A stretch of DNA of 35,102 nucleotides, from the IMG/VR virus record IMGVR_UViG_2541047701_000002, one strand, 5' to 3'. This DNA comes from a virus. Taxonomy: Duplodnaviria; Heunggongvirae; Uroviricota; Caudoviricetes. A program made the position numbers and the translations under genes. Positions 2,178 through 35,102 of this stretch are shown in pieces (positions within the stretch are counted from its first letter, which is position 1; each line of letters starts with the position of its first letter). The notes under the pieces were generated by a model that searched no databases, was not told the DNA's origin, and saw only the letters and a list, made by a program, of their open reading frames with translations.

Positions 2178-2190
2178 ATTCACTCCACAA

Positions 2191-2216
2191 ATAAAAAAGG
2201 CGCCATTTCTGGCGCC
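2191..2216 (-). terminator. Rho-independent terminator-like hairpin between J and stf
   Basis: Minus strand reads GGCGCCAGAAATGGCGCC followed by TTTTTTATTTG, immediately after the J stop. Confidence 0.55.
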
Positions 2217-2235
2217 CGTATCTGGGTTATAAAAT

Positions 2236-5200: not shown

Positions 5201-5718
5201 GGCAGGTTACCCACCACCACCGAGGCCAGATACTGCGAGGTGGTTTTGCCCTTAATGGTGATGTCTTTTTCCGTCACCCAGCCACCATTACGCTGTATCT
5301 GAACCAGCAGACGGACTTCCGACGGATTCCTGTCACCCTTTGAGGTGGTTTCCACCAGTGCCTGTACACCGAAGGTAAAGCGCAGACGGTCGATGTTTGC
5401 CGACGTAATGGTGCGGGTGATCGGCGTGTCATATTTCACTTCCGTACCCAGCACCGTCTCGGAGCCGGAGGATTCAAATCCCTCCGGCGGTGACTGCTCC
5501 TGCTCACCTGCCCGGAACACCACCGTGACGCCGGATATATTGGTATTCCCCTCACTGTCCAGCACCGGCGTACTGTTCAGCAGCACGCTTTTTAATCCAT
5601 CCACCGGACCTTCAACCGGCCCTTCGCTGATGGCATCAATCACACTCAGCAGCTGCGTGGATTTCAGGTTGTCCTTCGCTTCGCGCGGGGTATGCCCCTT
5701 ACTGCTGCCTTTACCCAT
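2236..5718 (-). CDS. J: Tail tip / host specificity protein J
   Basis: 1160 aa; N-terminus [34 protein letters not shown] and most of the length near-identical to lambda J; C-terminal receptor-binding end diverges. Confidence 0.95.
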
Positions 5719-5778
5719 TCGTCATGCTCCATAAACGATAAAACCGCCCGGAGGCGGTTTCACATAAAACATTTTGCA

Positions 5779-6450
5779 TCAGCGACCAATCACCACAACC
5801 TGACCACCATCCCCTTCGTCTGCCGTGCTGATCTCCTGAGAAACCACGCGTGACCCCACGCGCATTTCACCGTACAGAACCGGCAGAACATTGCCCTGGG
5901 CAACCATGTTATCCAGTGAGGAGAAATAGGTGTTCTGTTTGCCGTTATCCGTTGTCTGTGTACGGGGAGTTCTGGCTTTCGGTGCCAGCATCTGCGCCAC
6001 ACCACCGAGCACCATACTGGCACCGAGAGAAAACAGGATGCCGGTCATACCACCGGCCCCAATGGCTGCCCCCCATGCTGCAAGGGTGGCTCCGGCGGTA
6101 AAGAATGATCCGGCAATGGCGGCAGCCCCCAGGACAATCTGGAATACGCCACCTGACTTGGCCCCGGCGACTCTGGGAACAATATGAATCACAGCGCCAT
6201 CAGGCAGAGTCTCATGTAACTGCGCCGTTAACCCGGACGTGCTGACGTCCCGCCCGGCAATCCGTACCTGATACCAGCCGTCGCTCAGTTTCTGACGAAA
6301 CACCGGGAGCTGTGTGGCCAGTGCGCGGATGGCTTCAGCCCCCGTTTTCACACGAAGGTCGATGCGGCGGCCAAATCGTTGTAAATCCCCGTAAAGGCAG
6401 ATGCGCGCCATGCCCGGTGACGCCAGAGGGAGTGTGTGCGTCGCTGCCAT
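5779..6450 (-). CDS. I: Tail tip assembly protein I
   Basis: 223 aa, MAATHTLPLASPGMARICLYGDLQRFGRR matches lambda I; overlaps K by 103 bp as in lambda. Confidence 0.93.
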   Translation of the reverse strand: MAATHTLPLASPGMARICLYGDLQRFGRRIDLRVKTGAEAIRALATQLPVFRQKLSDGWYQVRIAGRDVSTSGLTAQLHETLPDGAVIHIVPRVAGAKSGGVFQIVLGAAAIAGSFFTAGATLAAWGAAIGAGGMTGILFSLGASMVLGGVAQMLAPKARTPRTQTTDNGKQNTYFSSLDNMVAQGNVLPVLYGEMRVGSRVVSQEISTADEGDGGQVVVIGR

Positions 6451-7091
6451 TTGTCGGTATACCTCTCTCGTTTACTCAGTTGTTCAGGAATATGGTGCAG
6501 CAGCTCGCCGTCACCACAGTAAATAGCGGCATGATTCGGCACCGATGAACCAAAGCAGCACAGCAGCACATCGCCCGGCTGCGCCGCTGACAACGGCACC
6601 TGATACAGCCCTGTGGCCTCCAGATTATCAAGATAGAGATTCTGGCCGTTACGCCACCAGTCATCCTCACGATGAAAGTCCGGCATCTCAATCCCCGCCA
6701 GATGGTAAGCGTCCCGGAACAGCGTGTAACAGTCCGTCACCCCGTGCTCAAAGCGCCGCCCGGTGAGATGCGGCACACAGCGGAACTTATGAATCGCCCC
6801 CCGGCAGACCAGCCACCACGGCAAATCACTCTGCACCTGCAGCCGCCGGTCGGCCTCACTCAGCCAGGGCAGACCACCGGGATGACTGTGGACCAGCGCC
6901 ACAATCTCACCCTGCATCTCTGCCTGCAGCCAGTCCTCCGGAGCCATCCGGAAATACGCCTCCGGCTCACCGGAGATATTCACGCAGGGAAAATATCTTT
7001 CCCCCTCCGGCGCTCTCACCACGAAGCCGCACGACTCCGCTGGCGCACATCGCCGGGCATGCGCCAGAATCGCTGATTCTGTCTCTGTCAT
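6348..7091 (-). CDS. K: Tail tip assembly protein K (MPN/JAMM plus NlpC/P60-like)
   Basis: HSHPGG...S..D JAMM-type motif and lambda K sequence; the track ORF extends 48 codons upstream of the classically annotated 199-aa K and begins 5 nt after the L stop. Confidence 0.85.
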   Translation of the reverse strand: MTETESAILAHARRCAPAESCGFVVRAPEGERYFPCVNISGEPEAYFRMAPEDWLQAEMQGEIVALVHSHPGGLPWLSEADRRLQVQSDLPWWLVCRGAIHKFRCVPHLTGRRFEHGVTDCYTLFRDAYHLAGIEMPDFHREDDWWRNGQNLYLDNLEATGLYQVPLSAAQPGDVLLCCFGSSVPNHAAIYCGDGELLHHIPEQLSKRERYTDKWQRRTHSLWRHRAWRASAFTGIYNDLAAASTFV

Positions 7092-7096
7092 GGGAT

Positions 7097-7795
7097 TTAC
7101 TGCGAAAGTTTGTTAATGGAAAGGAAGCCGCCAAAGTTGCCGACGTTATTGCGAAACTTACAGCCGCTCAGGCATTTGCTGCATTTATCCTTCGTGATAT
7201 CGGAAGTCGGCTGATCATATTCATCCGCGACCGCCGGACCGTGATAACCGCACTCATCACCGCGATAGGTCCAGGTGCAGGTATTAGCCAGCATGATGCG
7301 CCCCGGAAAAACGGCACCATCCGTTTCCGTCGGTGTGGACAGTACAAAGGAGGCACTGACCGCACTCAGTTCGCTGCACTGCTCGATGCGCCAGCGGCTG
7401 ATCACCTCCTGCTCCGGATCGGCGTCGCTGTTTCCGTTGACGAAGTTCACCGCATCCAGAAAACGGGCGTAAACCTTACGCCTGACCACCGTTCCGCCGA
7501 CCAGACTCTGCAGATCTTCCACCATCCCGGTGACCATACCGTACAGGTTAGAAACCGTCAGCGTGGGGCGCGTACTGGTGCCTTTGCCATTCAGTTCAAA
7601 ACTACTCCCCTGAATGGGATACGGCTGATACTGTCGCCCCTGCCAGGTGACCGGCTCACCTTTTTCGTTCTGCTCATTACAGAAAAAATAACGTTCTCCA
7701 CCGACCTCTGTCAGATCGATTTCCCAGAGCACCACGCTGGCCGACTGCTCCGCACGGGTGCATTCATTCAATGTTTCCTGCCGGATATCCTGCAT
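7097..7795 (-). CDS. L: Tail tip protein L
   Basis: 232 aa, lambda L-like sequence and synteny; C-terminal Cys cluster. Confidence 0.93.
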   Translation of the reverse strand: MQDIRQETLNECTRAEQSASVVLWEIDLTEVGGERYFFCNEQNEKGEPVTWQGRQYQPYPIQGSSFELNGKGTSTRPTLTVSNLYGMVTGMVEDLQSLVGGTVVRRKVYARFLDAVNFVNGNSDADPEQEVISRWRIEQCSELSAVSASFVLSTPTETDGAVFPGRIMLANTCTWTYRGDECGYHGPAVADEYDQPTSDITKDKCSKCLSGCKFRNNVGNFGGFLSINKLSQ

Positions 7796-8124
7796 CAGTT
7801 CACCACCTGTTCAAACTCTGCGCTGAACTCAACACGCAGCATACTGACCCGCGACGACCATTTTGCGCAGGTCACCTTTATCTGCCTGTAACCATAAGGC
7901 GGCGTCCACAGAAAGGCCTTCCAGCCCCCGTGCTCAGCCAGAAACGACTCCAGCGCCGTGGCCTCCTCACGGGAGACAGACAGCGTCACGCTGTACGTTT
8001 TCAGGTCAGCGTTCAGCCCGGCAGGCGCACGCTGGGAATAGCCATCACCAAAGCGCACCTCCCTGACGGAAGGAGCCGATGTCACATCCATCCCGGGTTT
8101 CACTTTCCAGCGGAAGGTTTTCAT
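7795..8124 (-). CDS. M: Tail tip protein M
   Basis: 109 aa, lambda M-like; synteny between H and L. Confidence 0.93.
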   Translation of the reverse strand: MKTFRWKVKPGMDVTSAPSVREVRFGDGYSQRAPAGLNADLKTYSVTLSVSREEATALESFLAEHGGWKAFLWTPPYGYRQIKVTCAKWSSRVSMLRVEFSAEFEQVVN

Positions 8125-10682
8125 CGTCCACCTCCGGAGAACAGACCACCATCGCGCATCTGTGCCTGGATTTCATCACGGGCACCCTTGCGGGCCATGT
8201 CATACACCGCCTTCATCATCTGTGGACCTGGCAGACCATTCGTACCGTCGTTCTGAATCACCACGTTGTTGTTCTGCTCAAACCTGATACCCTCTGAACG
8301 CCGCATTTGCGCCGGACTTCCGGTGCCACCGACATAACCGCCGGTGGCATAGCCGCGCATCAGCCGGTAGAGATTTCCCACGCCAATCCGGCTGGTTGCC
8401 TCCTTCGTGAAGACAAATTCACCACGGTGAACAATCCCCGCTGGCTCATATTTGCCGCCGGTTCCCGTAAATCCTCCGGTTGCAAAATGGAGTTTCGCCG
8501 CAGCGGCCTGAATGGCTGTACCGCCTGACGCGGATGCGCCGCCACCAACAGCCCCGCCAATAGCGCTGCCGATACTCCCGACAATCCCCACCATTGCCTG
8601 CTTAAGCAGAATTTCTGTCATCATGGACAGCACGGAACGGGTGAAGCTGCGCCAGTTCTGTTCACTGCCGGTCAGCATCGCCGCCATATTCTGCGCAATA
8701 CCATCAAAGGTCTGCGTGGCAGCACTTTTAACCTGCGACATACTGTCCGTGGCACTCTCTTCCCACTCACTCCAGCCGGACTTCAGGCCTGCCATCCAGT
8801 TCCCGCGAAGCAGGTCTTCAGCCGCCCAGGTCTTTTTCTGCTCTGACATGACGTTATTCAGCGCCAGAGGATTATCGCCATACTGTTCCTTCAGGCGCTG
8901 TTCCGTGGCTTCCCGTTCTGCCTGCCGGTCAGTCAGCCCCCGGCTTTTCGCATCAATAGCGGCCCGTTTTGCCCGTTGCTGCTGTGCGAATTTATCCGCC
9001 TGCTGCGCCAGCGCGTTCAGGCGCTCCTGATACGTAACCTTGTCGCCAAGTGCAGCCAGCTGGCGTTTGTACTCCAGCGTCTCATCTTTATGCGCCAGCA
9101 GGGATTTCTCCTGTGCAGACAGCTGGCGACGTTGCGCCGCCTCCTCCAGTACCGCGAACTGACTCTCCGCCTTCCACAAATCCCGGCGCTGCTGGCTGAT
9201 TTTCTCATTTGCTCCGGCATGCTTCTCCAGCGTCCGGAGTTCAGCCTGAAGCGTCAGCAGGGCAGCATGAGCACTGTCTTCCTGACGATCGCCCGCAGAC
9301 ACCTTCACGCCGGACTGTTTCGGCTTTTTCAGCGTCGCTTCATAATCCTTTTTCGCCGCCGCCATCAGCGTGTTGTAATCTGCCTGCAGGATTTTCCCGT
9401 CTTTCAGTGCCTTGTTCAGTTCTTCCTGACGGGCGGTATATTTCTCCAGCGGTGTCTGCAGCCGTTCGTAAGCCTTCTGCGCCTCTTCGGTATATTTCAG
9501 CCGTGATGCTTCGGTATCGCTCTGCTGCTGCGCATTTTTGTCCTGTTGACTCTGCTGTTCAGCCTTCTTTCGGGCGGCTTCAAGCGCAAGACGGGCCTTT
9601 TCACGATCATCCCAGTAACGCGCCCGCGCTTCATCGTTAACAAAATAATCATCCTTGCGCAGATTCCAGATGTCGTCCGCTTTCTTAAACGCAGCCTCTG
9701 CCTTAATCAGCATCTCCTGAGCGGTATCAGGACGACCAATATCCAGCACCGCATCCCACATGGATTTGAATGCCCGTGCTGTCCTGTCTGCCCAGGTTTC
9801 CAGCGTGCCCATGTTCTCTTTCAGGCGTCGGGTCTGGTCATCAAACCCTTTCGTTGCGGCCTCGTTCGCCGCCTGCAATGCCCCGGATTCATCGCCGGAA
9901 CGCTGCAACTGAGCAACATACGCAATCTGCTCCGCCGTTACGTTATGGAACTGGCGCGCCATCGCCGTCAGCCCCGACGTCGGGTCAGTGGTCAGCTTCC
10001 CGAAGGCTTCAGCGACCTTGTCCACCTCCACGCCGGATGCAGAGGAGAAACGCGCCACACTCTGGCTGATGGATGCAATCTGAGCCTCACCGCTTACTCC
10101 CGCCTTAACCAGTGCGCTGAGTGACTCGCTGGTCTGGTTAAACGTCAGCCCTGCCGCCTGCCCGGCTCTGGACAGGACCAGCATACGATCTGCCGTCAGA
10201 CCCGACTGATTGCCGGAAAGGACCAGCGTTTTGTTGAAATCGGACAGGGTTGAGTTACCCTGATACCAGGCATACGCCAGCGCACCGGTCGCCACCGCCA
10301 GCGAGGTGGCCCCGACCATCGGCAGGGTGATCGCACCGGCAAGCCCCCGGAACATGGGGATCATCCCGCCGAAGGAGTCCTTAACCTGACCACCCTGTTG
10401 CAGCAGGATCAGCCACGGGCTTTGCCCGCCTGCAAGCTGCGTGGCCACGTCGGTGAACTGTGCAGGCAGCATACGCATGGCGGCTTTATACTGCCCGACG
10501 GAAATCCCCGCTTTCTGTGCAGCCAGCGCCTGTCGGCTCAGCGACTGTTCAACGACTGCCGCTGTTTTTTTCGCATCACTTTCCGTACCGGAAAAATGAC
10601 GCCTGACTCTGGCCATCTGCTCGTCAAATCTGGCCGCATCCAGACTTAAATCAACGACCAGATCGCCTACCGGTTCAGCCAT
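8121..10682 (-). CDS. H: Tail tape measure protein H
   Basis: 853 aa (same length as lambda H); coiled-coil rich; lambda H-like N- and C-termini. Confidence 0.95.
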   Translation of the reverse strand: MAEPVGDLVVDLSLDAARFDEQMARVRRHFSGTESDAKKTAAVVEQSLSRQALAAQKAGISVGQYKAAMRMLPAQFTDVATQLAGGQSPWLILLQQGGQVKDSFGGMIPMFRGLAGAITLPMVGATSLAVATGALAYAWYQGNSTLSDFNKTLVLSGNQSGLTADRMLVLSRAGQAAGLTFNQTSESLSALVKAGVSGEAQIASISQSVARFSSASGVEVDKVAEAFGKLTTDPTSGLTAMARQFHNVTAEQIAYVAQLQRSGDESGALQAANEAATKGFDDQTRRLKENMGTLETWADRTARAFKSMWDAVLDIGRPDTAQEMLIKAEAAFKKADDIWNLRKDDYFVNDEARARYWDDREKARLALEAARKKAEQQSQQDKNAQQQSDTEASRLKYTEEAQKAYERLQTPLEKYTARQEELNKALKDGKILQADYNTLMAAAKKDYEATLKKPKQSGVKVSAGDRQEDSAHAALLTLQAELRTLEKHAGANEKISQQRRDLWKAESQFAVLEEAAQRRQLSAQEKSLLAHKDETLEYKRQLAALGDKVTYQERLNALAQQADKFAQQQRAKRAAIDAKSRGLTDRQAEREATEQRLKEQYGDNPLALNNVMSEQKKTWAAEDLLRGNWMAGLKSGWSEWEESATDSMSQVKSAATQTFDGIAQNMAAMLTGSEQNWRSFTRSVLSMMTEILLKQAMVGIVGSIGSAIGGAVGGGASASGGTAIQAAAAKLHFATGGFTGTGGKYEPAGIVHRGEFVFTKEATSRIGVGNLYRLMRGYATGGYVGGTGSPAQMRRSEGIRFEQNNNVVIQNDGTNGLPGPQMMKAVYDMARKGARDEIQAQMRDGGLFSGGGR

Positions 10683-11513
10683 ACCGGACTCCTCCTGCGA
10701 TCCCTTCTGATACTGTCATCAGCATTACGTCATCCTCCGTCATGCCCGCCATATCCGGGGAAGCGGGGATAACTTCATTTCCGTCCGGGTCAAAGCGGAC
10801 GCCTCCGGTAAGCCCTGCCGCTTTCTGCATCAGCACATCATCTTCAGGCTCTTCGTCATCCTCACGCCGGTTCAGCAAACTGAAATCCAGCGGATGCATA
10901 TCCGGATCGCTGAAAAACAGGCTGAGCACAGTGTACGTCAGCCCGGAAAAGTGCATATCCAGCAGAACATCATGAAAATAATGGGTACTGTAAAAGCGGT
11001 GCCAGTCGGCATACTCCGTGGATGACATCCCGGCAAGCATGGCGCGCCAGTCAGGTCGCCCCATCTCTCGCGCCAGTTTCAGGGCAAAACTCAGCTCACC
11101 GTCGAACACTTTCCCGCAGAAACAGGCTCTGCAGGCCCGGAGTCCTCTGCCTGGTCAGGGGCATCATTCACCACAAACCCATACATACCGGACAGCCGGT
11201 ACACCACGTTTTCAGCATGAGAAATTGCCTCCGCGGGCCAGGTGGTAAGCACTTCCTGCTCAATCTGTTTAACGGCTTCATTCATGGAAGGCTGCTTTGT
11301 CTTCTGCGGATGGTTATGCCACAGGGACATCGCCACCACAAAAGCACCGGTTCTGATGGCGTCTTCCACAGTAACCTGCCGGTTGCTGTCTGACTCCGCC
11401 TGTTCTGCCTGCTGTTTCATCAGGGCGAGATGCTCAATACGCTGCAGGGCTGACAGTTCAGAAAGCGTGACGGTCACGCCGTTATGTTCAAATGATTCGG
11501 TTTTCAGGAACAT
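10675..11513 (-). CDS. T: Tail assembly chaperone G-T fusion (programmed -1 frameshift product)
   Basis: T-frame ORF 10675-11109 has no independent start context; it joins the G frame at the slippery heptamer GGGAAAG (about 11109-11115) as in lambda. Confidence 0.8.
11091..11513 (-). CDS. G: Tail assembly chaperone G
   Basis: 140 aa, lambda G-like (MFLKTESFEHNGVTVTLSELSALQRIEHLALMKQ). Confidence 0.93.
   Translation of the reverse strand: MFLKTESFEHNGVTVTLSELSALQRIEHLALMKQQAEQAESDSNRQVTVEDAIRTGAFVVAMSLWHNHPQKTKQPSMNEAVKQIEQEVLTTWPAEAISHAENVVYRLSGMYGFVVNDAPDQAEDSGPAEPVSAGKCSTVS
11109..11115 (-). other. G-T -1 ribosomal frameshift slippery site (GGGAAAG)
   Basis: Plus strand ctttccc, minus strand GGGAAAG, at the G/T ORF overlap. 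Confidence 0.8.
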
Positions 11514-11528
11514 CGCTGACTCTCCGGA

Positions 11529-12269
11529 TTAACTGTCGGTGACAGTGATTTCTGCAACCGCAGCAAGTTCACCATTACCGGATACAACCGGAATGTTGAC
11601 CTTGCCTGCAGCAACGCCGTTCACGGTGATGGTCATACCACTGACCGACACGGTGGCTTTTGTTTTATCCGCTGACACCGCACGGAAGCTCTTGTCAGTT
11701 GCGCCCTCCGGCTGGAAGGCCACGGTCAGCGTGGTGCTCTGCCCTTTCACCACCGAGGAGCTGGCAGGCGTCACGGTCATACCGGTTGCCGCCGTCACCG
11801 TACTGCGATCTTCTGCCATTGACGGACGGCCCACATTGGTGACCTTCACCGTACGGGTGATCACTTCCTTCGCCGTCACCGCCTTACCGATACTGCTGAC
11901 CCAGCCACGGAACACATCGACCGTGCCGTTCGGGAAGCGGATTTTATAGGCACGGGTATCACCTTCATTAAACCACGCCAGCAGCGCCTGCTGCCCCTGC
12001 TCTCCGGGCATCCACGCCAGCGTGAAGCTGGTATATCCGGCGGATTTCTGCCCCTGCCCGGTCGCGGTCCAGTCCGCATCTTCATCATCGAGATAACTGT
12101 CGTCATAGGACTCAGCGGTCAGTTCGCCGGGCGTCAGGTCTTTAATTTTTGCCAGACGCGACCAGTCATTGTCTGAAAGCGGGTTTGCATAAGGGTCGCC
12201 GCTCCCGTTATAAACCCACAGTGTGGTCCCGGCCCCTTTCACCGGTGCCAGAGGATTTGGTGTTGGCAT
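11529..12269 (-). CDS. V: Major tail tube protein V (with C-terminal Ig-like domain)
   Basis: Start trimmed 10 codons to [20 protein letters not shown], matching the lambda V start; 246 aa. Confidence 0.93.
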
Positions 12270-12276
12270 ATCGTCC

Positions 12277-12672
12277 TCACATTTCATAGGTAATGACATA
12301 AGTCAGATCGGCTGAACTCCACAGGCCCGCATCATCGTCGCGCCGGTAGTCATAGCCACTGGCCACCATACTGGTGATCAAATCTGACAGTGCCGGGATA
12401 TCGCTCATCACCGGATAAATCCGGGACTCCATCCACGAATCCAGCTCTGAATCCGGCACCTGAGCAGGCAGGAAAACTTCAATATGCAGCTCCGCCTGCC
12501 AGGTATCGCTGTCCAGCTCTTCGCCCGTGTATTCAGCGCCGGTGAGATAAACGGCAATTGCCGGAAAATCTTCCTCATCAAAAACAGCAGGGCGACCATC
12601 AAAAAGCGTCGCCCCGGTGTCATGCTTCTCCAGTGCATCCAGTACGGCTGCACGGAGTTCAGTATGTTTCAT
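12277..12672 (-). CDS. U: Tail terminator protein U
   Basis: 131 aa, lambda U-like. Confidence 0.93.
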
Positions 12673-14030: not shown

Positions 14031-15059
14031 TTATTTCACCTGTACCACCACAAACTCATCCGGGTCCGGCAACACCATCAGCGGCGCGGACTGCGTCATG
14101 GTAAATTCACGGGCGGGATCCCCTACCGTCAGCCAGTGTTTCGGATAACGGGAAGAGGCCACCACACCTTCGGACAACGCCTGAGCATCCTGAATGGCAC
14201 CGTAACAACGGATCCCATCTGCAGCAGTATTCCCCAGAACCAGCATGCCATCTGGAAGATAACGTTTTTCGATACCGTCTTCTGCTATATAAGACGTTTT
14301 CGCCACCACAATGGCCAGATCGCCGTAATACCCCTTGAAGGACACCACTGCGCCCAGATCTTTCACTGCCGTTTCGAGTTGAGAATTTGAACCGCGACGG
14401 GTATCCAGTTTTTCGCGGAACAGCTTAAAACCATTCAGAAGACGCCAGACGGTACCGTCCATAATGGCAATATTCACAAGACCGCTGGCCAGGTCGCAGT
14501 AGAGGTCAATATCATGTGTAGGATCGAACGTGTCACGATCCTGTTTTGACCACTCCTTACCACTACCCTGAGTGATGTTATTCTTCGTCGACCTGCCAAA
14601 ATCGACCTCAATTTTCTCGAACTGGTCTCCTTCCATGGTGTATTTGCCATACAACACAGCATTTACCGCCTGCATTTCTTCCACCTGGACAATCGCGTGC
14701 TCTTCCTGTTTGAGGTTATCGGTAATGATACGCAGACGGCGGTAAGCCGGATCATTCAGTTGAGATGGATCTTCACCAGGAAGGCGCTCAACCGCCTGCT
14801 GGTAATTAAATTCGTGTTTCGGCTTGACGTAGCCCGGACGCAACACGCGGGTTTCACCACCACGATGACGCAGCACTTTTCCTTCAACAACCGGGGAGAC
14901 ATAGGCCGCCACCGGCGTTTTTCCGGTAATTTTGTCCAGCATCACCTCTTCGGTATGGAAATTCACCGTACGGCGGAAAAACAGCTCCAGAAACAGCGCA
15001 CGAAATTTAACTTTTTGTTCGGTATAACCGAGTAACTGGCGGGTCGTAAACAATCCCAT
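14031..15059 (-). CDS. E: Major capsid protein E
   Basis: 342 aa; strong match to lambda E (KYTMEGDQFEKIEVDFGRS, GDPAREFTMTQSAPLM). Confidence 0.95.
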   Translation of the reverse strand: MGLFTTRQLLGYTEQKVKFRALFLELFFRRTVNFHTEEVMLDKITGKTPVAAYVSPVVEGKVLRHRGGETRVLRPGYVKPKHEFNYQQAVERLPGEDPSQLNDPAYRRLRIITDNLKQEEHAIVQVEEMQAVNAVLYGKYTMEGDQFEKIEVDFGRSTKNNITQGSGKEWSKQDRDTFDPTHDIDLYCDLASGLVNIAIMDGTVWRLLNGFKLFREKLDTRRGSNSQLETAVKDLGAVVSFKGYYGDLAIVVAKTSYIAEDGIEKRYLPDGMLVLGNTAADGIRCYGAIQDAQALSEGVVASSRYPKHWLTVGDPAREFTMTQSAPLMVLPDPDEFVVVQVK

Positions 15060-23769: not shown

Positions 23770-24263
23770 TGCTGACCCCACAAACAGATTTCACGCTCAA
23801 TCTCACGACGAGTCATGAGACCTTTCCATTGCTTACCGCCAGCATATGTCCAGCGACGTAGCTGATCACATGCGCCTTTGATATCGCCCTGGTTTATTTT
23901 GCGAAGAAGCGTCGATGTTCTGAAATTGCCAGCACCCACGTTGTAAACGAATGAGTAAAGAGCGCCGCGCATTGTTTCCGGTATATCGACTTTGATGTAC
24001 GGGTTAATTTGTCTGGCGACCGTGGCAAGGTCTTTATTCAGGAGGGCTTTGCATTCTGCTTTGGTATACGTTTTACCGAGCATGATGTCTTTTCCTGTAT
24101 GCCCGTGACATACAGTCCATACACCAACAATATCTTTGTATGGTATGTAGCTGACACCTTCCAGACCATCGTTACCACTTGGGCCAGTGATTAACACTGA
24201 TGCTATAGCAATTGCTCCGCCACCAATAGCAGCAGCAACGGCTTTTCGTAATGATGGAGGCAT
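23766..24263 (-). CDS. R: SAR endolysin (phage 21 R-type lysozyme, signal-anchor-release)
   Basis: 165 aa; [30 protein letters not shown] hydrophobic SAR N-terminus plus lysozyme core; matches the phage 21 / DLP12 RrrD type, not the lambda R transglycosylase. Confidence 0.9.
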
Positions 24264-24478
24264 TATTCACCTCTCGCAGCCTTGCGCTTATCTTCTTTAA
24301 TCTTGAAATAAAGGTTTGTCAGGTACGTCAGCAGGCCAAATACCAGGCTACCCAGCACACCTATTGCCGCCCACTGTGAGGGCGTGACTTTATCGAGCAA
24401 CTGTAAAAACCAGTACCCGGCACTACCTGCTGAGGTACCATAGGCGACACCCGTTGTTAACTTATCCATGGATTTCAT
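24263..24478 (-). CDS. S: Pinholin S (phage 21 S21-type, dual-start)
   Basis: 71 aa, [31 protein letters not shown]; two TM segments; Met1 and Met4 dual-start motif typical of S21 / EssD. Confidence 0.9.
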
Positions 24479-24604
24479 AACCCCACCTCGCAGACAAAGC
24501 GGGTGTAAATTAAGGGGATACTACGTATCGCAATAAAGGCAGAAACGTAACAGATTCGGAGTCAGTGAATAACTCAGGTATTGGGTTATCAGCTAATATC
24601 GAGA

Positions 24605-24640
24605 CTCAAAAAATGGAAAAACCCGCTCGACGGCGGGTTT
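24605..24640 (-). terminator. Rho-independent terminator-like hairpin about 130 nt upstream of S (candidate tR'-type late terminator)
   Basis: Minus strand AAACCCGCCGTCGAGCGGGTTT followed by TTCCATTTTTTGAG. Confidence 0.45.
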
Positions 24641-25066
24641 AAGCTGTGTGACGAAGTAACCACTCTTAACAGCATAACCAATTTTTTACGTACGTAAACT
24701 ACTAAATGATATTTGTGAGAATGCCACCGAGTGTTCAAAACACCACCACAAATGCATAAGAAAACTTCAACAAATAACCAGTTAATAATTTCCGACGTTA
24801 TTTTTAGTTTGTTTAAATTAAGCTAAAGAATTATAGAGCACTTATAAATAAGTGCCATTAATATAAATTAGCTAATAGATTTATTTTTGTTCAGACAAGA
24901 GCCATGAATAGGATTAGATAGAAAAGGTTCAGATAAAAATAGAGATCTACTTCACAAATTAAATGAGAAACTAAAACTTACATCTTGAAATAATCACATT
25001 GATTAGATGAATATTTATCGCGCAGTGACATCATTTTTTAATAATAGTTCAAAAAAAGGGCGTACA

Positions 25067-26149
25067 ATGAAAAAATTAACAGTGGCAATTTCTGCTGTAG
25101 CTGCATCAGTACTGATGGCGATGTCTGCTCAGGCAGCTGAAATTTATAATAAAGACAGTAACAAGCTGGATCTATACGGGAAAGTTAATGCCAAGCACTA
25201 CTTCTCCTCTAATGATGCAGATGATGGTGATACTACTTATGCCCGTCTTGGCTTCAAAGGTGAAACCCAAATCAACGATCAACTGACTGGTTTCGGTCAG
25301 TGGGAATATGAATTCAAAGGCAACCGTGCTGAATCTCAAGGTTCTTCCAAAGACAAAACCCGTCTTGCATTTGCAGGCCTGAAATTTGGTGATTACGGCT
25401 CAATCGATTACGGCCGTAACTACGGTGTAGCATACGACATCGGTGCGTGGACTGACGTTCTGCCAGAATTCGGTGGTGATACCTGGACCCAAACAGATGT
25501 GTTCATGACTGGTCGCACTACTGGTGTTGCAACTTATCGTAACAACGACTTCTTTGGTCTGGTCGATGGCCTGAACTTTGCTGCTCAGTATCAGGGTAAA
25601 AATGACCGCACTGACGTAACTGAAGCCAATGGTGATGGTTTCGGTTTCTCCACTACTTATGAGTATGAAGGATTCGGCGTGGGTGCAACCTATGCTAAAT
25701 CAGATCGCACTGACGGTCAGGTCGCCTATGGTAAGAGCAAATTCAATGCCTCCGGCAAAAATGCGGAAGTATGGGCTGCAGGCCTGAAATATGATGCGAA
25801 CAATATCTATCTGGCTACCACATATTCTGAAACTCAGAATATGACCGTTTTTGGTAATAACCATATTGCAAACAAAGCACAAAACTTTGAAGCAGTAGCA
25901 CAATATCAGTTTGACTTCGGTCTGCGTCCATCTGTTGCTTACCTTCAGTCAAAAGGTAAAGACCTTGGTGTTCATGGTGACCGAGACTTAGTCAAGTATG
26001 TCGATGTCGGTGCTACTTACTACTTTAATAAAAACATGTCCACTTTTGTTGATTACAAAATCAACTTAATTGACGATAGTAAGTTTACCAAAACAGCTGG
26101 TATTGATACCGACGACATCGTCGCTGTAGGTCTGGTTTATCAGTTCTAA
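25067..26149 (+). CDS. nmpC: Outer membrane porin, phage Lc / NmpC family (OmpC-like; lysogenic conversion)
   Basis: Start trimmed to [23 protein letters not shown] signal peptide; [17 protein letters not shown]...GLVYQF with C-terminal Phe; typical general porin; opposite strand to the flanking Q and lysis genes. Confidence 0.92.
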
Positions 26150-30952: not shown

Positions 30953-30984
30953 AATGACTCCTGTGGATTGATCCAGTAATGACC

Positions 30985-31281
30985 TCAGAATTCCATCTGG
31001 ATTTGTTCAGAACGCTCGGTTGCCGCCGGGCGTTTTTTATTGGTGAGTCCATCAAGCGCATACTTAAAAGCCCTGCTAATCGGACTGATGTCTGATGCCA
31101 TTCCGAAAGCACACAAGACCGAAGCAATAAATCTCCAGTCCGTTCTGCTTATCTTCGATTCATGACAGCCAATCATCTTTGCCAGACCGCGCTGGGTAAT
31201 AGCTGACAGATTGATAAGTAAATCTGTTTCTGCGCGATCAACGTCACGCTGTGATAGTTTGCTGTAACTTGTTCTTTCCAT
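30985..31281 (-). CDS. cII: Transcriptional activator cII (mosaic: non-lambda N-terminal region, lambda C-terminus)
   Basis: 98 aa; C-terminal TNKKRPAATERSEQIQMEF identical to lambda cII; the N-terminal ~75 aa (MERTSYSKLSQRDVDRAETDLLINLSAITQRGLAKMIGCHESKISRTDWRF) differ from lambda but retain an HTH. Confidence 0.85.
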   Translation of the reverse strand: MERTSYSKLSQRDVDRAETDLLINLSAITQRGLAKMIGCHESKISRTDWRFIASVLCAFGMASDISPISRAFKYALDGLTNKKRPAATERSEQIQMEF

Positions 31282-31366
31282 TTCTTAAGATTTCCAATAG
31301 TGAATAGTTAGTTGAAAGGTATGCGTGGAAACGCATATGGCCTTAGTTGGTCAGATATCTTGGAAC

Positions 31367-31411
31367 TCGCTTTTCAGCGACGTAGGACGAATGTCCGTTG
31401 TTACAAAGAGC
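31367..31411 (-). promoter_or_regulatory. nutR: nutR-like site (boxA plus boxB hairpin) between cro and cII
   Basis: Minus strand CGCTCTTTGTAACAACG (boxA-like) then UCGCUGAAAAGCGA (5-bp stem, GAAA loop), same architecture as the nutL candidate; coordinates approximate. Confidence 0.55.
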
Positions 31412-31422
31412 GGATCCGCTTA

Positions 31423-31638
31423 TTAAGCGGCTTTGTGTTCCGGCGGGAACACGTCATCAAGACTGACTTTTGCGCCTAACTTGTTTAGGCACGCAACAAG
31501 AGCACGGCATGTTTTAAGGTCTGGGAAGCGACGACCAGATTCCCAATGTCCGATAGCTCCCTGTGTGCATCCAACTGCCTTAGCAAGTGTTGTTTGAGAG
31601 ATATTCAGTGACTCTCGATATTTTCGTAGGTTGCTCAT
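31423..31638 (-). CDS. cro: Cro-like repressor (HTH, non-lambda specificity)
   Basis: Start trimmed to MSNLRKYRESLNISQTTLAKAVGCTQGAIGHWESGRRFP (GGAGG RBS); 71 aa HTH protein divergently transcribed from cI. Confidence 0.85.
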   Translation of the reverse strand: MSNLRKYRESLNISQTTLAKAVGCTQGAIGHWESGRRFPDLKTCRALVACLNKLGAKVSLDDVFPPEHKAA

Positions 31639-31754
31639 ATGCCCTCCATAGTAAACACGAATAAAAAATACAATATGTACTTTGCGAATACAAGTAAAAA
31701 TACACATTGTGCATGGATGGTTCCAGTACAGAGCGTAATAATAAGGACATGAAA
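31639..31754. promoter_or_regulatory. Right operator / divergent promoter region (OR, PR, PRM) between cro and cI
   Basis: AT-rich 116-bp divergent intergenic region with three occurrences of the half-site ATACA(A): ATACAATATGTAC, ATACAAGTAAAAATACA, ATACACATTGTGCAT. Confidence 0.6.
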
Positions 31755-32408
31755 ATGAAATGGTATGAACTGGCTAGATCCAGAATGAAAGAGCTCGGCA
31801 TAACTCAAGAGAAGTTAGCCGAAGAGCTAGGTATGACGCAGGGTGGGATTGGACACTGGTTGCGCGGATCTCGTCATCCATCTCTTAGTGATATTGGTGT
31901 GGTGTTTAAATACCTTGGTATTGATAACATATCATTCAACCACGACGGGACATTTTCACCTGTTGGCGAATACTCATCGGCCCCAGTTAAAAAACAATAT
32001 GAGTACCCTGTTTTTTCTCATGTTCAGGCTGGGATGTTCTCTCCAGAACTCAGAACCTTTACCAAAGGCGATGCGGAGAGATTGGTAAGCACAACCAAAA
32101 AAGCCAGTGACTCTGCATTCTGGCTTGAGGTTGAAGGTAACTCAATGACCGCACCAACAGGTTCCAAACCCAGCTTTCCTGACGGGATGTTAATTCTGGT
32201 TGACCCTGAGCAAGCTGTTGAGCCCGGCGATTTCTGCATAGCCAGACTTGGTGGTGATGAATTTACCTTCAAGAAACTGATCAGGGATAGCGGTCAGGTG
32301 TTTCTACAGCCACTAAACCCACAATACCCAATGATCCCATGCAATGAGAGTTGTTCCGTTGTGGGGAAAGTTATCGCCAGCCAATGGCCTGAAGAGACGT
32401 TTGGGTGA
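31755..32408 (+). CDS. cI: CI repressor, chimeric: novel N-terminal HTH domain plus lambda-identical C-terminal LexA/S24-type autocleavage domain
   Basis: C-terminal ~130 aa ([22 protein letters not shown]...GNSMTAPTG...[46 protein letters not shown]) match lambda cI; N-terminal [38 protein letters not shown] differs; start chosen at the second ATG (AAGGA 7 nt upstream); the ATG 6 nt upstream is an alternative. Confidence 0.9.
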
Positions 32409-32447
32409 TGAAACCACTTTTATCTACAATTTACAGGGCGGTAAACA

Positions 32448-33005
32448 TTGGCAAAAATAGATGATTATCAGCCAAGCCAAGTAGAAGTTGATAAAGTACT
32501 TTATTGTAAAAAAATAGTTAACTTTTCTGGCGTTAAATGGAAACAGAAACCAAGTCGCTCTGATATGTGGCTACAAGCCCATATCATCCCCTTGGATGAG
32601 GATTGTATACCTATACAAGGGCTAAAGTTTGAACTGAAATGGAAACCAGATCAGGATTCAGAACCTGATGACCCGATTTCTTACCCTAAAATAAATATTA
32701 TTGCTTTCTATCATAACAAGAGGGTTTTCGCGGTAGATACCTATCACTTTGACAAACACACGAATAGTTACAAGGTCGATCATCCGAAGTACCAAGATAT
32801 CATTTACGGTGCTCACTACCATGTATACTATGAAGAAGCTGGATACTATAGTGATAGAATAGCGTTTCCAATCGAAGATGACATAAACCCAGATGACCTG
32901 GTAGGGTATTGGAATTACTTCTGTAAACATCTGAACATAACTTACTCTGGGAGAATACCTTTACCGCTTGAAGATGAGTCGGGGCAAATGGGGTTTGGAA
33001 TATGA
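32448..33005 (+). CDS. Hypothetical protein A of a two-gene cassette downstream of cI (rexAB-equivalent position)
   Basis: 185-codon ORF starting 40 nt after the cI stop; apparent TTG start (first in-frame ATG is 39 codons in); AT-rich; acidic, Tyr/His-rich (HYHVYYEEAGYY); no TM segment; no family recognised by eye. Confidence 0.6.
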   Translation: MAKIDDYQPSQVEVDKVLYCKKIVNFSGVKWKQKPSRSDMWLQAHIIPLDEDCIPIQGLKFELKWKPDQDSEPDDPISYPKINIIAFYHNKRVFAVDTYHFDKHTNSYKVDHPKYQDIIYGAHYHVYYEEAGYYSDRIAFPIEDDINPDDLVGYWNYFCKHLNITYSGRIPLPLEDESGQMGFGI

Positions 33006-33754
33006 TGTGCTCAACAGTGATCTCACAACTAGGTTTCGAATGCCATCCAATAGGCAAGACCTTGAGAATTATCAGTCCATTCACTTACTGTGATGATGGA
33101 GAGCATGTCGGTGCCTTTATCCGTGAAGTCAATGGTAGGTATTTAGTTAGTGACAGATGCGATGCCTTAATGAATATGGAGGCAAGAGGGATCTCGCTTA
33201 CCAAAAAACGACTTGATGAGATACGACAATTACTGCTTAAAGAAGGCGCAGAACTCAATGCTCGAGGAGAAATCATTGCTTGGGCAACAGAAAAGGATGT
33301 CGGTGCGATTACATCGAACATAATTAGAGCTGGTATACTCGCATCAACTTTGTCGTTAGACTGGTATCAGCCAGTTCAAGCTGAAAAGTTTGAAAGTATG
33401 GTTATTGATTATCTATATCACACAGAGCTTAGAGACGCACTTTCTCTTCGTGAAAACGTATATGGCTTGAGTGGACATCAAATTACCGTCCCTGTAACAA
33501 TAAAAACCGACATACCTAAATACGTTTTTACATCAAGCGTGAAACACGGAGGAAGCTGGAATAGTGCTTACTCATTGCTTGGGAAACTAATTGATCTTAA
33601 AGCTTCAAGTGAGGAGTATAACAACAGATTTGTTGTTATAGACAGCGAAGCAATTGGTGATCAAATGCAACAACTCTCCTTACTCTTCCATGAATCAAGC
33701 CAAGTTCTACCATTCTCCAAAAGAGAGACTTGGGTTAAGAGACTTGCAGCATAA
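33002..33754 (+). CDS. Hypothetical protein B of the two-gene cassette (translationally coupled to protein A)
   Basis: ATG overlaps the stop of protein A (ATGA); 250 aa; AT-rich codon usage; followed by a terminator; no family recognised by eye. Confidence 0.65.
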   Translation: MMCSTVISQLGFECHPIGKTLRIISPFTYCDDGEHVGAFIREVNGRYLVSDRCDALMNMEARGISLTKKRLDEIRQLLLKEGAELNARGEIIAWATEKDVGAITSNIIRAGILASTLSLDWYQPVQAEKFESMVIDYLYHTELRDALSLRENVYGLSGHQITVPVTIKTDIPKYVFTSSVKHGGSWNSAYSLLGKLIDLKASSEEYNNRFVVIDSEAIGDQMQQLSLLFHESSQVLPFSKRETWVKRLAA

Positions 33755-33757
33755 TAC

Positions 33758-33786
33758 AACCCGGCCTCAGCGCCGGGTTTTCTTTG
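33758..33786 (+). terminator. Rho-independent terminator ending the cI-cassette transcript (timm-like)
   Basis: AACCCGGC ctcagc GCCGGGTT followed by TTCTTTG, 4 nt after the cassette stop codon. Confidence 0.65.
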
Positions 33787-33954
33787 CCTCACGTTCGCCC
33801 ACCTAAAAACACATAACCAATTATATTTATTGAAAAATAAATAGATGCAACCCACTAAACCACGCAATTCTGATCTCTCCTTACATCGCCGAGGCAATAC
33901 ATCCACGCTAAAAAACAACACTATTAAATACAAAGCGTTATAAAAAACCACGCC

Positions 33955-34005
33955 AACTTACAACAAATTGTATTGATCTTGTAAAGTACATATCGTACTA
34001 TTTAA
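33955..34005 (+). promoter_or_regulatory. Candidate PL promoter with OL operators
   Basis: TTGATC (-35), 17-nt spacer, TACTAT (-10); operator-like AGTACATATCGTACT in the spacer and TTACAACAAATTGTATT overlapping the -35; same ATACA/TGTAT half-sites as OR; coordinates approximate. Confidence 0.5.
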
Positions 34006-34046
34006 CCGTCAGCAGGACGCTGGAAGCCAAATGGAACAGACTGGCA

Positions 34047-34092
34047 GGCTCTTTAAACAACGTCGACTCTCGACTACGTGGCTGAAAAGCCA
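34047..34092 (+). promoter_or_regulatory. nutL: nutL-like site (boxA GCTCTTTAAACAA plus boxB hairpin)
   Basis: boxA-like GGCTCTTTAAACAACG followed about 20 nt later by UGGCUGAAAAGCCA (5-bp stem, GAAA loop), about 100 nt upstream of N. Confidence 0.6.
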
Positions 34093-34190
34093 GATCACCC
34101 AACCACATAAGCTGTGGGATGCAATGCCGAAGCAACCGTCTCAGGAGGAGCTTCGAGATTGCATCGCCAAAGTTTATTCGGGAGGAATCC

Positions 34191-34463
34191 ATGTCCAGAA
34201 AAACAGAATTTAAAGGCACCGCAGCTTCTCGCCGTAGAGCTCGTCGCGCAAATCTGCAAAGTCAGGAGGCGATCAGCTCCGACAAGCTACACAGGCCAAC
34301 CCCTTCACGAGTGGTCTTGCAATGCAAGCTCAAACCAGCAATGAGAGCAGAAGTGATAACTCTGACAACGTTGACCAGAAAATATGAAGGTTCAACTTGT
34401 CTTCCGAACGTAGCTCTTTACGCGGCAGGCTACCGGAAATCAAAACAACTGACGGCGAGATGA
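34191..34463 (+). CDS. N: Antiterminator N (P22 gene-24 type, arginine-rich motif)
   Basis: Start trimmed to MSRKTEFKGTAASRRRARRANLQSQEAISSDK (GGAGGAA RBS); C-terminus PNVALYAAGYRKSKQLTAR resembles P22 N; 90 aa. Confidence 0.8.
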   Translation: MSRKTEFKGTAASRRRARRANLQSQEAISSDKLHRPTPSRVVLQCKLKPAMRAEVITLTTLTRKYEGSTCLPNVALYAAGYRKSKQLTAR

Positions 34464-34471
34464 TAAATTCA

Positions 34472-35102
<631 letters not shown>

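What the first reader, a model, noticed from the sequence alone, without database searches (positions are those of the whole stretch)
32448..33786. Unrecognised two-gene, AT-rich, translationally coupled cassette in the rexAB slot downstream of cI: candidate lysogen-expressed exclusion/defense system
Seen in sequence: two ORFs (185 and 250 aa) sit immediately downstream of cI on the same strand. The second start overlaps the first stop (ATGA), and a rho-independent terminator follows before OL/PL. This is the position lambda uses for rexA-rexB, transcribed with cI from PRM in the lysogen. The cassette is visibly more AT-rich than the flanking phage genes, suggesting horizontal acquisition. Neither protein resembles RexA or RexB (no TM-rich partner), and I recognise no catalytic motif or family in either. 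Inference: a prophage-encoded, constitutively expressed two-component module, most plausibly abortive infection or superinfection exclusion. The first gene appears to start with TTG, which may mean low or regulated translation.
Basis: partly seen in the sequence, partly recalled or inferred. Interest (0 to 1): 0.88.

Follow-up and report, generated by a model that had tools for sequence, protein, structure and literature searches.

The report
Untested two-gene defence candidate after cI
Two overlapping genes of unknown function sit exactly where phage lambda carries rexA-rexB, and the same pair follows the repressor gene of many unrelated prophages, so it is very probably an anti-phage cargo; others have already predicted this by computer, but I found no experimental test and the mechanism is unknown.

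Summary
ORF1 (gene A, 32448-33005, TTG start, 185 aa) and ORF2 (gene B, 33002-33754, 250 aa) overlap by ATGA. They lie 39 nt after cI and end 3 nt before a terminator homologous to lambda t_imm. Homology to lambda breaks at the cI stop codon and resumes at the rexB stop codon, so this is a clean replacement of rexAB. GC is 39.6% against 51.3% for the window.

"Unrecognised" is only partly true. B is DUF1828 plus a restriction-endonuclease-like (PD-(D/E)xK, DUF1829) fold. A is a distant DUF6978 relative with no relative among solved structures. Both genes match, in order, the untested PADLOC candidate PDC-M24. The exact proteins (WP_001062368.1, WP_000968518.1) are listed as "Predicted novel defense gene" by DefensePredictor (Science 2026) but are absent from its table of tested units.

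New here: the A-B pair with its ATGA junction persists down to 23-35% identity across Gamma- and Betaproteobacteria. In 80 of 80 viral contigs it is present, almost always directly behind a repressor, and those repressors are of many immunity types. A starts with GTG or TTG in 79 of those 80. Distant copies sit next to restriction-modification genes.

Verdict: a real, conserved and probably defensive module. It is a divergent variant of a catalogued candidate; mechanism and phenotype are untested.

The parts
31713..32408 (+). cI-type repressor (HTH_3 + Peptidase_S24). It is the gene whose operon the cassette appears to extend. Its 3' part (31998-32409) is 93.4% identical to lambda cI DNA.
32409..32447 (+). 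39-nt cI-to-A spacer with a purine-rich AGGGCGG 7 nt upstream of the TTG. No terminator-like site. The left homology breakpoint with lambda lies at 32409/32410.
32448..33005 (+). Gene A (ORF1), 185 aa, TTG start, identical to WP_001062368.1. Distant DUF6978 / PDC-M24A relative. Beta-rich fold with no relative in the PDB. Residues W31, R92, N106, H123, H125, F158, P173 are invariant family-wide; K22, D97, H104, G121, Q180 are nearly so. Conserved SGQ(M/I)G tail in a low-confidence C-terminus.
33002..33005 (+). ATGA start/stop overlap (translational coupling), conserved in all 9 lineages compared.
33002..33754 (+). Gene B (ORF2), 250 aa, identical to WP_000968518.1. N-terminal DUF1828 domain (about 10-120, a fold like type III secretion chaperones) plus a C-terminal alpha-beta-beta-beta-alpha-beta restriction-endonuclease-like domain (about 127-250; DUF1829 / clan PDDEXK by published HHblits). 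Full-length match to PDC-M24B.
33758..33786 (+). Intrinsic terminator (8-pair stem, 6 G-C, then a T-run). It is the start of a 122-bp block (33758-33879) that is 90% identical to the lambda t_imm region, and it marks the right homology breakpoint.
33983..34009 (.). OL-type operator-like arm, an inverted partner of 31657-31683 at OR. It marks the end of the immunity region that encloses the cassette.

Best explanation
The cassette is a horizontally exchanged cargo ("moron") that extends the prophage repressor operon, as rexAB does in lambda and bstA in BTP1. It is made in the lysogen, where it most likely protects the cell and the prophage against other phages.

It works as an obligate two-protein unit. 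Gene A is translated poorly (TTG or GTG start). Gene B is translated by coupling through the ATGA overlap, which fixes the ratio of the two proteins. B supplies a DNA-directed restriction-endonuclease-fold domain joined to a chaperone-like DUF1828 domain that could bind a peptide or protein. A is the faster-evolving partner, carries an invariant pair of histidines (H123, H125) with H104 and N106 nearby, and has a conserved C-terminal tail that probably docks on B. I propose that A senses or gates, and that on infection the A-B complex attacks or blocks DNA.

Shown: the anatomy, the slot, conservation of the pair, the link to repressor genes, the folds, and the association with RM genes.
Inferred: expression from PRM, the A-B interaction, which protein is the effector, nuclease activity, and the defence phenotype itself.
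For: - Slot: exact replacement of rexAB between the cI stop and t_imm. Published work calls cI-N a mosaic hotspot that holds RexAB and BstA (PMC8585504).
- Link to repressors: the pair directly follows a repressor in Salmonella, Aeromonas and Klebsiella. In Thorsellia and in a Pseudomonas D3-like phage it follows a repressor with a longer gap or one extra gene.
- In IMG/VR, 80 of 80 loci have both genes. The nearest upstream ORF is on the same strand in 76 of 80, with a median gap of about 67 nt. Of 48 distinct upstream proteins, 38 have Peptidase_S24 and 39 HTH_3, yet they share only 18% mean column identity. So the pair is attached to many immunity types.
- Module integrity: 10 of 11 betaproteobacterial loci found through distant A relatives have B immediately downstream (the 11th is cut by a contig end). 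The ATGA junction is kept in all 9 compared lineages at 23-35% identity.
- Both genes are under purifying selection.
- A is always less conserved than B: 70 vs 84, 46 vs 65, 38 vs 55 and 24 vs 28%.
- A uses a non-ATG start in 79 of 80 viral loci and in 4 of 6 gammaproteobacterial lineages.
- Defence association: PDC-M24B matches B at E 4.7e-10 over the full length and matches 13 of 13 diverse B proteins. PDC-M24A and DUF6978 match A weakly (E 5e-4 and 2e-4) and match 6-7 of 23 diverse A proteins, down to E 1.5e-6. PDC-M24 came from guilt-by-embedding in BREX, DISARM and RM I systems.
- Distant pairs lie next to a methylase + ResIII pair on an integrase/Toprim-primase island (L018), next to a methylase (L027), and next to Dcm-Vsr-EcoRII (L021).
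- DefensePredictor lists the exact proteins as predicted novel defence genes.
Against: - No experiment. The cassette is not among the 118 units tested by DefensePredictor, and PDC systems are untested.
- The canonical D...(D/E)xK catalytic residues are not conserved in B. The invariant polar residues of its C-domain are S157, H159, D198 and R209. Acidic residues present at two positions in the beta and Pseudomonas branch are T and K in the enteric branch. B may therefore not cut DNA.
- In the one validated system with a DUF1829 protein (DS-6/HipAD), that protein is proposed to be the antitoxin-like, DNA-binding partner and not the effector.
- Transcription from PRM is not shown. In some lineages the repressor-A gap is 130-650 nt or holds an extra gene.
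- Functional phages carry the cassette unchanged (ev017, ev207, PhiR57_1, PhiR63_2), so any effector must spare its own phage by an unknown route.
Confidence: 0.55

Rival explanations
1. The cassette is a defence module with the roles reversed, like a toxin-antitoxin pair. A is the toxic effector, an enzyme built around the conserved H104, N106, H123, H125 cluster. B is a non-catalytic regulator or sensor of the restriction-endonuclease fold that binds DNA or a phage product, holds A in check, and releases it on infection (abortive infection).
For: - B lacks a conserved canonical PD-(D/E)xK triad.
- In validated DS-6/HipAD, the DUF1829 protein is the proposed antitoxin-like DNA-binding partner of a toxin encoded first in the operon.
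- A is encoded first and almost always has a weak GTG or TTG start, as expected for a protein that must be kept scarce.
- The family-wide invariant residues of A are polar, of the kind found in active sites: R92, N106, H123, H125.
- A preprint describes DUF6978 as having conserved histidines that form a putative metal site.
Against: - A evolves faster than B in every lineage, which is more typical of a sensor or antitoxin than of an effector.
- Part of its conserved motif (RVFAVD...H.N) resembles a purely structural Kelch hairpin.
- There is no evidence of toxicity.
Confidence: 0.2
2. The cassette is not an anti-phage system. It serves the prophage itself, for example as a stabilising addiction module, as a modulator of the lysogeny-to-lysis switch, or as a DNA-processing function used at induction.
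For: - It is tightly linked to the repressor gene across immunity types, which would also suit a function in immunity or switch control.
- It is kept in a degraded prophage of Nissle 1917, as an addiction module would be.
- From my own knowledge, RexAB itself has been reported to influence the lysis-lysogeny transition.
Against: - Distant members occur outside prophages, next to RM genes and on an integrative island.
[quoted passage not shown] Neither fact fits a role in the phage switch.
- Many lambdoid phages with similar cI and t_imm flanks lack the pair (645 of 884 matching E. coli records match only part of the query), so it is dispensable cargo.
Confidence: 0.17
3. The ORFs are hitch-hiking, decaying or mis-called, with no function.
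For: AT-rich foreign DNA; no annotation beyond a DUF; TTG start.
Against: - pN/pS is about 0.18 and 0.12 with saturated synonymous sites.
- Full-length homologues exist from Gamma- to Betaproteobacteria with a conserved ATGA junction.
- Both structure models are confident: pLDDT 85.9 with pTM 0.83, and pLDDT 84.5.
- The sequence is identical in 239 complete E. coli genomes.
Confidence: 0.02

Closest known systems
PADLOC phage-defence candidate PDC-M24 (CAS_00098, FAM_00129>>FAM_00065; Payne et al., bioRxiv 10.1101/2024.01.29.577857)
   Same: A two-gene A-then-B cassette. B matches the PDC-M24B models over their full length (E 4.7e-10; 13 of 13 diverse family members). A and its relatives match the PDC-M24A models. 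Distant copies found here are adjacent to RM genes, in line with how PDC-M24 was discovered.
   Different: The matches are remote. A matches only over residues 104-163, at E 5e-4. The branch studied here lives in prophage immunity regions, not inside BREX, DISARM or RM I loci. PDC-M24 is itself an untested prediction with no mechanism.
Lambda RexA-RexB
   Same: Identical genomic slot, with homology breakpoints at the cI stop and at t_imm. Two genes on the cI strand, closed by the same terminator.
   Different: No sequence similarity (E > 1). No membrane protein (RexB has transmembrane segments, A and B have none). The lambda genes do not overlap (rexA ends at 36275 and rexB starts at 36259, a 15-nt gap), whereas A and B overlap by ATGA.
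BstA of Salmonella prophage BTP1 (PMC8585504)
   Same: A lysogen-expressed defence gene immediately downstream of the prophage repressor, with that synteny conserved across Gram-negative prophages.
   Different: BstA is a single protein. The PADLOC scan of A and B returned only PDC-M24 models. No aba-like self-immunity element is known here.
DS-6 / HipAD (DefensePredictor, PMC13092281)
   Same: A validated two-gene E. coli defence system. Its second protein carries a DUF1829 (PD-(D/E)xK-clan) C-terminal domain behind a DUF N-domain, and it partners a first-gene product.
   Different: The partner there is a HipA-family kinase, and A has no kinase domain. The N-domain there is DUF3037, not DUF1828. 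Whether the DUF1829 domains play the same role is unknown.
Type II restriction endonucleases of the NgoMIV/Cfr10I/PspGI group and the CARF nuclease Can2
   Different: About 10% sequence identity. The catalytic D...(D/E/S)xK...E residues are not recognisably conserved. No methyltransferase partner and no CARF domain.

Membership tests
Lambda RexAB exclusion system | Located between cI and t_imm/OL on the cI strand | tested here: met
   Homology to lambda ends at 32409 (1 nt past the cI stop) and resumes at 33758 (the rexB stop and t_imm).
Lambda RexAB exclusion system | A RexA homologue | tested here: not met
   BLASTP of A and B against RexA: best E 25 and 42. No Pfam or PADLOC hit.
Lambda RexAB exclusion system | RexB, a polytopic inner-membrane protein | tested here: not met
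   Highest 19-residue Kyte-Doolittle hydropathy is 0.45 (A) and 1.19 (B) against 2.39 for RexB. No window exceeds 1.6.
PADLOC PDC-M24 candidate | Second gene matches a PDC-M24B model | tested here: met
   PDLC04540 at E 4.7e-10, residues 2-249 on profile positions 4-254 of 256. 13 of 13 diverse B proteins match.
PADLOC PDC-M24 candidate | First gene matches a PDC-M24A model | tested here: inconclusive
   PDLC04536 at E 4.8e-4, residues 104-163 only. 6 of 23 diverse A proteins match PDLC04533, best E 1.5e-6. 7 of 23 match Pfam DUF6978, best E 2e-6, but the window protein is below Pfam's cut-off (22 bits against 29.6).
PADLOC PDC-M24 candidate | A then B, adjacent, on the same strand | tested here: met
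   4-nt overlap.
PADLOC PDC-M24 candidate | Found embedded in or beside BREX, DISARM or RM loci | tested here: not met
   In this window the neighbours are cI and OL/N. Only distant copies (L018, L021, L027) lie beside RM genes.
PD-(D/E)xK nuclease superfamily (Pfam clan CL0236, DUF1829) | Restriction-endonuclease-like alpha-beta-beta-beta-alpha-beta core | tested here: met
PD-(D/E)xK nuclease superfamily (Pfam clan CL0236, DUF1829) | Conserved catalytic D...(D/E)xK residues | tested here: not met
   In 13 diverse B proteins the invariant polar residues of the C-domain are S157, H159, D198 and R209. No invariant acidic residue lies in strand 2 or 3, and K173 is not conserved outside the enteric branch. 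This mapping uses predicted secondary structure, not a superposition.
PD-(D/E)xK nuclease superfamily (Pfam clan CL0236, DUF1829) | Mg2+-dependent DNA cleavage | not testable with these tools
   Needs purified protein.
DS-6 / HipAD | HipA-family kinase as first gene | tested here: not met
   A has no kinase domain in Pfam or NCBIfam.
DS-6 / HipAD | Second protein is DUF3037 + DUF1829 | tested here: not met
   The N-domain of B is DUF1828. Only the DUF1829 part is shared, and that rests on published HHblits.
Experimentally validated anti-phage system (any) | Reduced plating or protection when expressed | not testable with these tools
   Absent from DefensePredictor Table S6 of tested units. PDCs are untested. 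Brenes & Laub 2025 (PubMed id 40409266) could not be read.

The most novel reading that the evidence does not exclude
The A-B pair is a mechanistically new immune module. Its active component would be the A protein, a fold with no relative in the PDB built around an invariant histidine pair (H123, H125) with H104 and N106 nearby, carrying out a chemistry not yet seen in phage defence. B would be a catalytically degenerate restriction-endonuclease-fold protein that has been recruited, through its DUF1828 domain, as the sensor of a phage DNA structure or protein. The weak start codon plus the ATGA coupling would set the stoichiometry that keeps the module silent in the lysogen and during the carrier phage's own lytic growth.
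Probability: 0.15. Interest if true: 0.75.

Novelty: new variant of a known kind. Interest (0 to 1): 0.45.

Why it matters
If the cassette is validated, it would add a defence system that is common in clinically and industrially important E. coli. An identical copy is present in 239 of 5,426 complete genomes (4.4%), including Nissle 1917, ATCC 25922, the type strain ATCC 11775 and several UPEC and APEC strains. This bears on phage-therapy host range and on the unexplained lambda and Stx-phage resistance of Nissle 1917.

It would also turn an untested PADLOC candidate (PDC-M24) and two families of unknown function (DUF1828, DUF6978) into a tractable system in a lambda-like phage. There the natural comparison, rexAB swapped for A-B between identical flanks, already exists.

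The strict link to repressor genes of dozens of immunity types, the universal non-ATG start of A and the invariant ATGA junction give clear, testable hypotheses about dosage control.

Tried and rejected
- RexA/RexB homology: none.
- Sequence search of the PDB with single proteins and with profiles gave nothing meaningful. The 8pjr "SAKe" hit (E 1e-10 with the profile) is an artefact: a 22-residue Kelch-like hairpin motif is summed over six identical blades, and each stretch on its own has an E-value of 50-270.
- NCBIfam: no family. PHROGs: phrog_2017 and phrog_1960, both of unknown function.
- Plasmids: no B homologue by tblastn.
- Rfam on 31300-34600: nothing. No meaningful repeats inside the cassette, so there is no ToxI-like RNA component.
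- The search for related loci failed with the broad A alignments because no stretch was conserved enough. It worked with a four-sequence subset.
- The Nissle 1917 "phage repressor pr" phenotype (PMC5987069) looked like possible evidence. The primers map to the cII gene, not to the cassette, so it says nothing about A-B.
- Literature: no paper in the library mentions PDC-M24. DUF1828 and DUF6978 appear only in passing. Brenes & Laub 2025 is not held.
Full report
**1. What is in the sequence**

The window is a lambda-like prophage read in the opposite orientation to the lambda map. P, O, cII and cro lie on the minus strand. cI (31713-32408), the two ORFs, a terminator and an N-family gene lie on the plus strand.
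- ORF1 (gene A) runs 32448-33005 from a TTG. ORF2 (gene B) runs 33002-33754. The junction reads ATGA.
- A terminator with an 8-pair stem and a T-run follows at 33758-33779.
- The cassette is 39.6% GC, against 51.3% for the window and 46.3% for cI. It is in the lowest 0.6% of equal-sized windows.
- PGAP annotates the same two genes, including the TTG start, in E. coli Nissle 1917 as WP_001062368.1 and WP_000968518.1.

**2. It is exactly the rexAB slot**

A blastn comparison with lambda gives two flanking matches.
- Window 31998-32409 is 93.4% identical to lambda 37637-37226. This is the 3' part of cI, ending one base past its stop codon.
- Window 33758-33879 is 90% identical to lambda 35826-35708. 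This starts inside the rexB stop codon and runs through t_imm.

The 1,348 bp in between replace the 1,399 bp that hold rexA and rexB.

Neither protein resembles RexA or RexB, and neither has a hydrophobic segment. Operator-like and boxB-like inverted repeats at 31657/33983 and 31363/34074 bracket the immunity region.

**3. Distribution**
- The identical cassette is present in 239 of 5,426 complete E. coli genomes, including Nissle 1917, ATCC 25922 and the type strain.
- It is also in the phages ev017, ev207, PhiR57_1, PhiR63_2 and one Stx1a phage.
- The window is about 100% identical to PhiR63_2 up to the end of N.
- No plasmid carries a B homologue.

**4. What the proteins are**

Gene B:
- It passes Pfam's cut-off for DUF1828.
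- This agrees with the published HHblits assignment of residues 155-241 to DUF1829, clan PDDEXK.
- However, across 13 B proteins from Gamma- and Betaproteobacteria, the invariant polar residues of this domain are S157, H159, D198 and R209. There is no conserved D...(D/E)xK. So the fold is nuclease-like, but catalysis is unproven.
- C3, C14, D32 and D51 are invariant, and E34 and H35 nearly so, in the N-domain. They could form a metal or ligand site; this is inference only.

Gene A:
- A profile search of 1.84 billion representative proteins found only 32 relatives.
- The family-wide invariant residues are W31, R92, N106, H123, H125, F158 and P173. K22, D97, H104, G121 and Q180 are nearly invariant.
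- A itself is below threshold for DUF6978 and PDC-M24A. Several of its distant relatives match those models at about 1e-6.

**5. The pair is an old, tightly coupled module**
- I searched one genome per species with a pattern taken from distant A relatives (about 24% identical to A). This returned 11 betaproteobacterial loci. In 10 of them a B-family gene follows immediately; the 11th is cut by a contig end.
- In nine lineages spanning 23-100% identity, the A stop and B start form the same ATGA.
- A is always less conserved than B. Both are under strong purifying selection.
- In 80 IMG/VR loci recovered with the B profile, A is present in all 80.
- In those 80 loci, the junction is ATGA in 64. 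In the other 16, A ends in TAA and my ORF caller places the B start about 13 nt upstream of that stop.
- In those 80 loci, the A start codon is GTG (52), TTG (27), unassigned (1) and never ATG.
- Many of these 80 loci are near-identical copies. There are 17 distinct junction contexts.

**6. Linkage to repressors**
- In Salmonella, Klebsiella, Aeromonas and Thorsellia prophages, and in a Pseudomonas D3-like phage, the pair lies downstream of the repressor on the same strand. In the Pseudomonas phage, A is not annotated and one extra gene lies between the repressor and A.
- In the IMG/VR set, the nearest upstream ORF is on the same strand in 76 of 80 loci, with a median gap of about 67 nt.
- Of the 48 distinct upstream proteins, 38 carry Peptidase_S24 and 39 HTH_3. 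Their mean column identity is only 18%, so many different immunity types carry the pair.
- This is the pattern published for bstA, and the cI-N interval is a recognised mosaic hotspot.

**7. Independent links to defence**
- Both genes match, in order, PADLOC's PDC-M24A/B models. PDC-M24 is one of 145 untested candidates derived from genes embedded in BREX, DISARM or type I RM loci.
- Among the distant loci found here, three lie beside RM genes. L018 lies between an integrase/Toprim-DUF927 primase and an N6_N4 methylase + ResIII pair. L027 precedes a similar methylase. L021 follows Dcm-Vsr-EcoRII.
- DefensePredictor's Tables S5 and S10 list the exact proteins as "Predicted novel defense gene" with log-odds 5.64 (B) and 4.90-5.42 (A). 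Their contig and accession numbers are absent from Table S6, which lists the 118 tested units.
- In that study 42 of 94 selected units protected against phage.
- The only validated DUF1829 protein, DS-6B of HipAD, has a different N-domain and a kinase partner, and it is proposed to act like an antitoxin.

**8. Mechanism**

The most likely reading (about 0.55) is a lysogen-expressed, two-protein anti-phage module whose stoichiometry is set by a weak A start and ATGA coupling. B would act on DNA, and A would be the variable partner that senses or gates.
- The reversed assignment, with A as effector and B as regulator, is a serious rival (about 0.2). B lacks canonical catalytic residues, and the HipAD precedent points that way.
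- A non-defence role for the prophage itself is less likely (about 0.17), given the copies that lie outside prophages next to RM genes.
- Expression from PRM, the A-B contact, the enzymatic activity and the phenotype are all inferred.

**9. Novelty and score**

But the cassette is neither unrecognised nor a new idea. It is a divergent, prophage-borne branch of a catalogued candidate family, and the exact proteins have a published machine-learning defence prediction.

New here:
- the exact cassette swap against lambda;
- the depth of conservation of the coupled pair;
- the non-ATG start as a family trait;
- the quantified link to repressor genes of many immunity types;
- the RM neighbourhoods of distant copies;
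- the absence of a conserved catalytic triad in B.

I could not check whether Brenes & Laub 2025 already validated it. Interest: 0.45.

Noticed in passing
window 30959-31327 (cII gene 30985-31281, minus strand): The "phage repressor (pr)" gene of E. coli Nissle 1917 was reported to reduce lambda and Stx-phage plating about 200-fold when cloned on pUC19 (PMC5987069). Its cloning and qPCR primers map to the CII-family activator gene, not to cI. The published phenotype may therefore reflect cII overexpression.
   Followed up: partly
window 25007-26149 (+), inside a low-GC island at about 24050-26000: This is the second low-GC cargo in the window. It is a 380-aa OmpC/NmpC/Lc-type porin gene on the opposite strand, between the Q-like antiterminator and the S/R/Rz lysis genes. 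It is annotated as porin OmpC, OmpD or NmpC in the matching phages. This is a known kind of lysogenic-conversion gene.
   Followed up: partly
window 31713-32408: cI is a mosaic. Its 3' part (31998-32409, the S24 domain) is 93% identical to lambda cI at the DNA level, while the 5' HTH part does not align. It is a lambda-like repressor with a different DNA-binding specificity (71% protein identity overall).
   Followed up: partly
L017 4486-5004 (Pseudomonas phage VB_PaD_phPA-G, PP083311, about 14515-15033): An A-family gene is missing from the GenBank annotation. It starts MAKQK..., overlaps the annotated B homologue by ATGA, and lies downstream of the CI-like repressor with one extra 216-aa gene in between.
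   Followed up: yes
window 31657-31683 / 33983-34009 and 31363-31385 / 34074-34096: Two long-range inverted repeat pairs bracket the immunity region. They are consistent with OR/OL operators and with nutR/nutL boxB hairpins (GCTGAAAAGC).
   Followed up: no
window 34474-35102: Identity to phages PhiR63_2 and PhiR57_1 stops just after the N gene, so the last 630 bases of the window differ from those phages. In Nissle 1917, sieB, an IS3 element and a truncated integrase follow N.
   Followed up: no
ORF1 residues 76-115 (window about 32673-32792): The stretch RVFAVDTYHFDKHTNSYKVDHP looks like one blade hairpin of Kelch-type propellers. It matches the designed protein SAKe6AC (8pjr). The E-value is inflated by six repeats, so I treat it as a local motif resemblance and not as homology.
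   Followed up: partly
L018 (Sulfuricellaceae MAG, JASJPB010000027.1) 947-12572: A small integrative island: tyrosine integrase, a Toprim-DUF927 primase, the A-B pair, then an N6_N4 methylase + ResIII pair. This is a defence-island-like setting for the distant branch of the family.
   Followed up: partly
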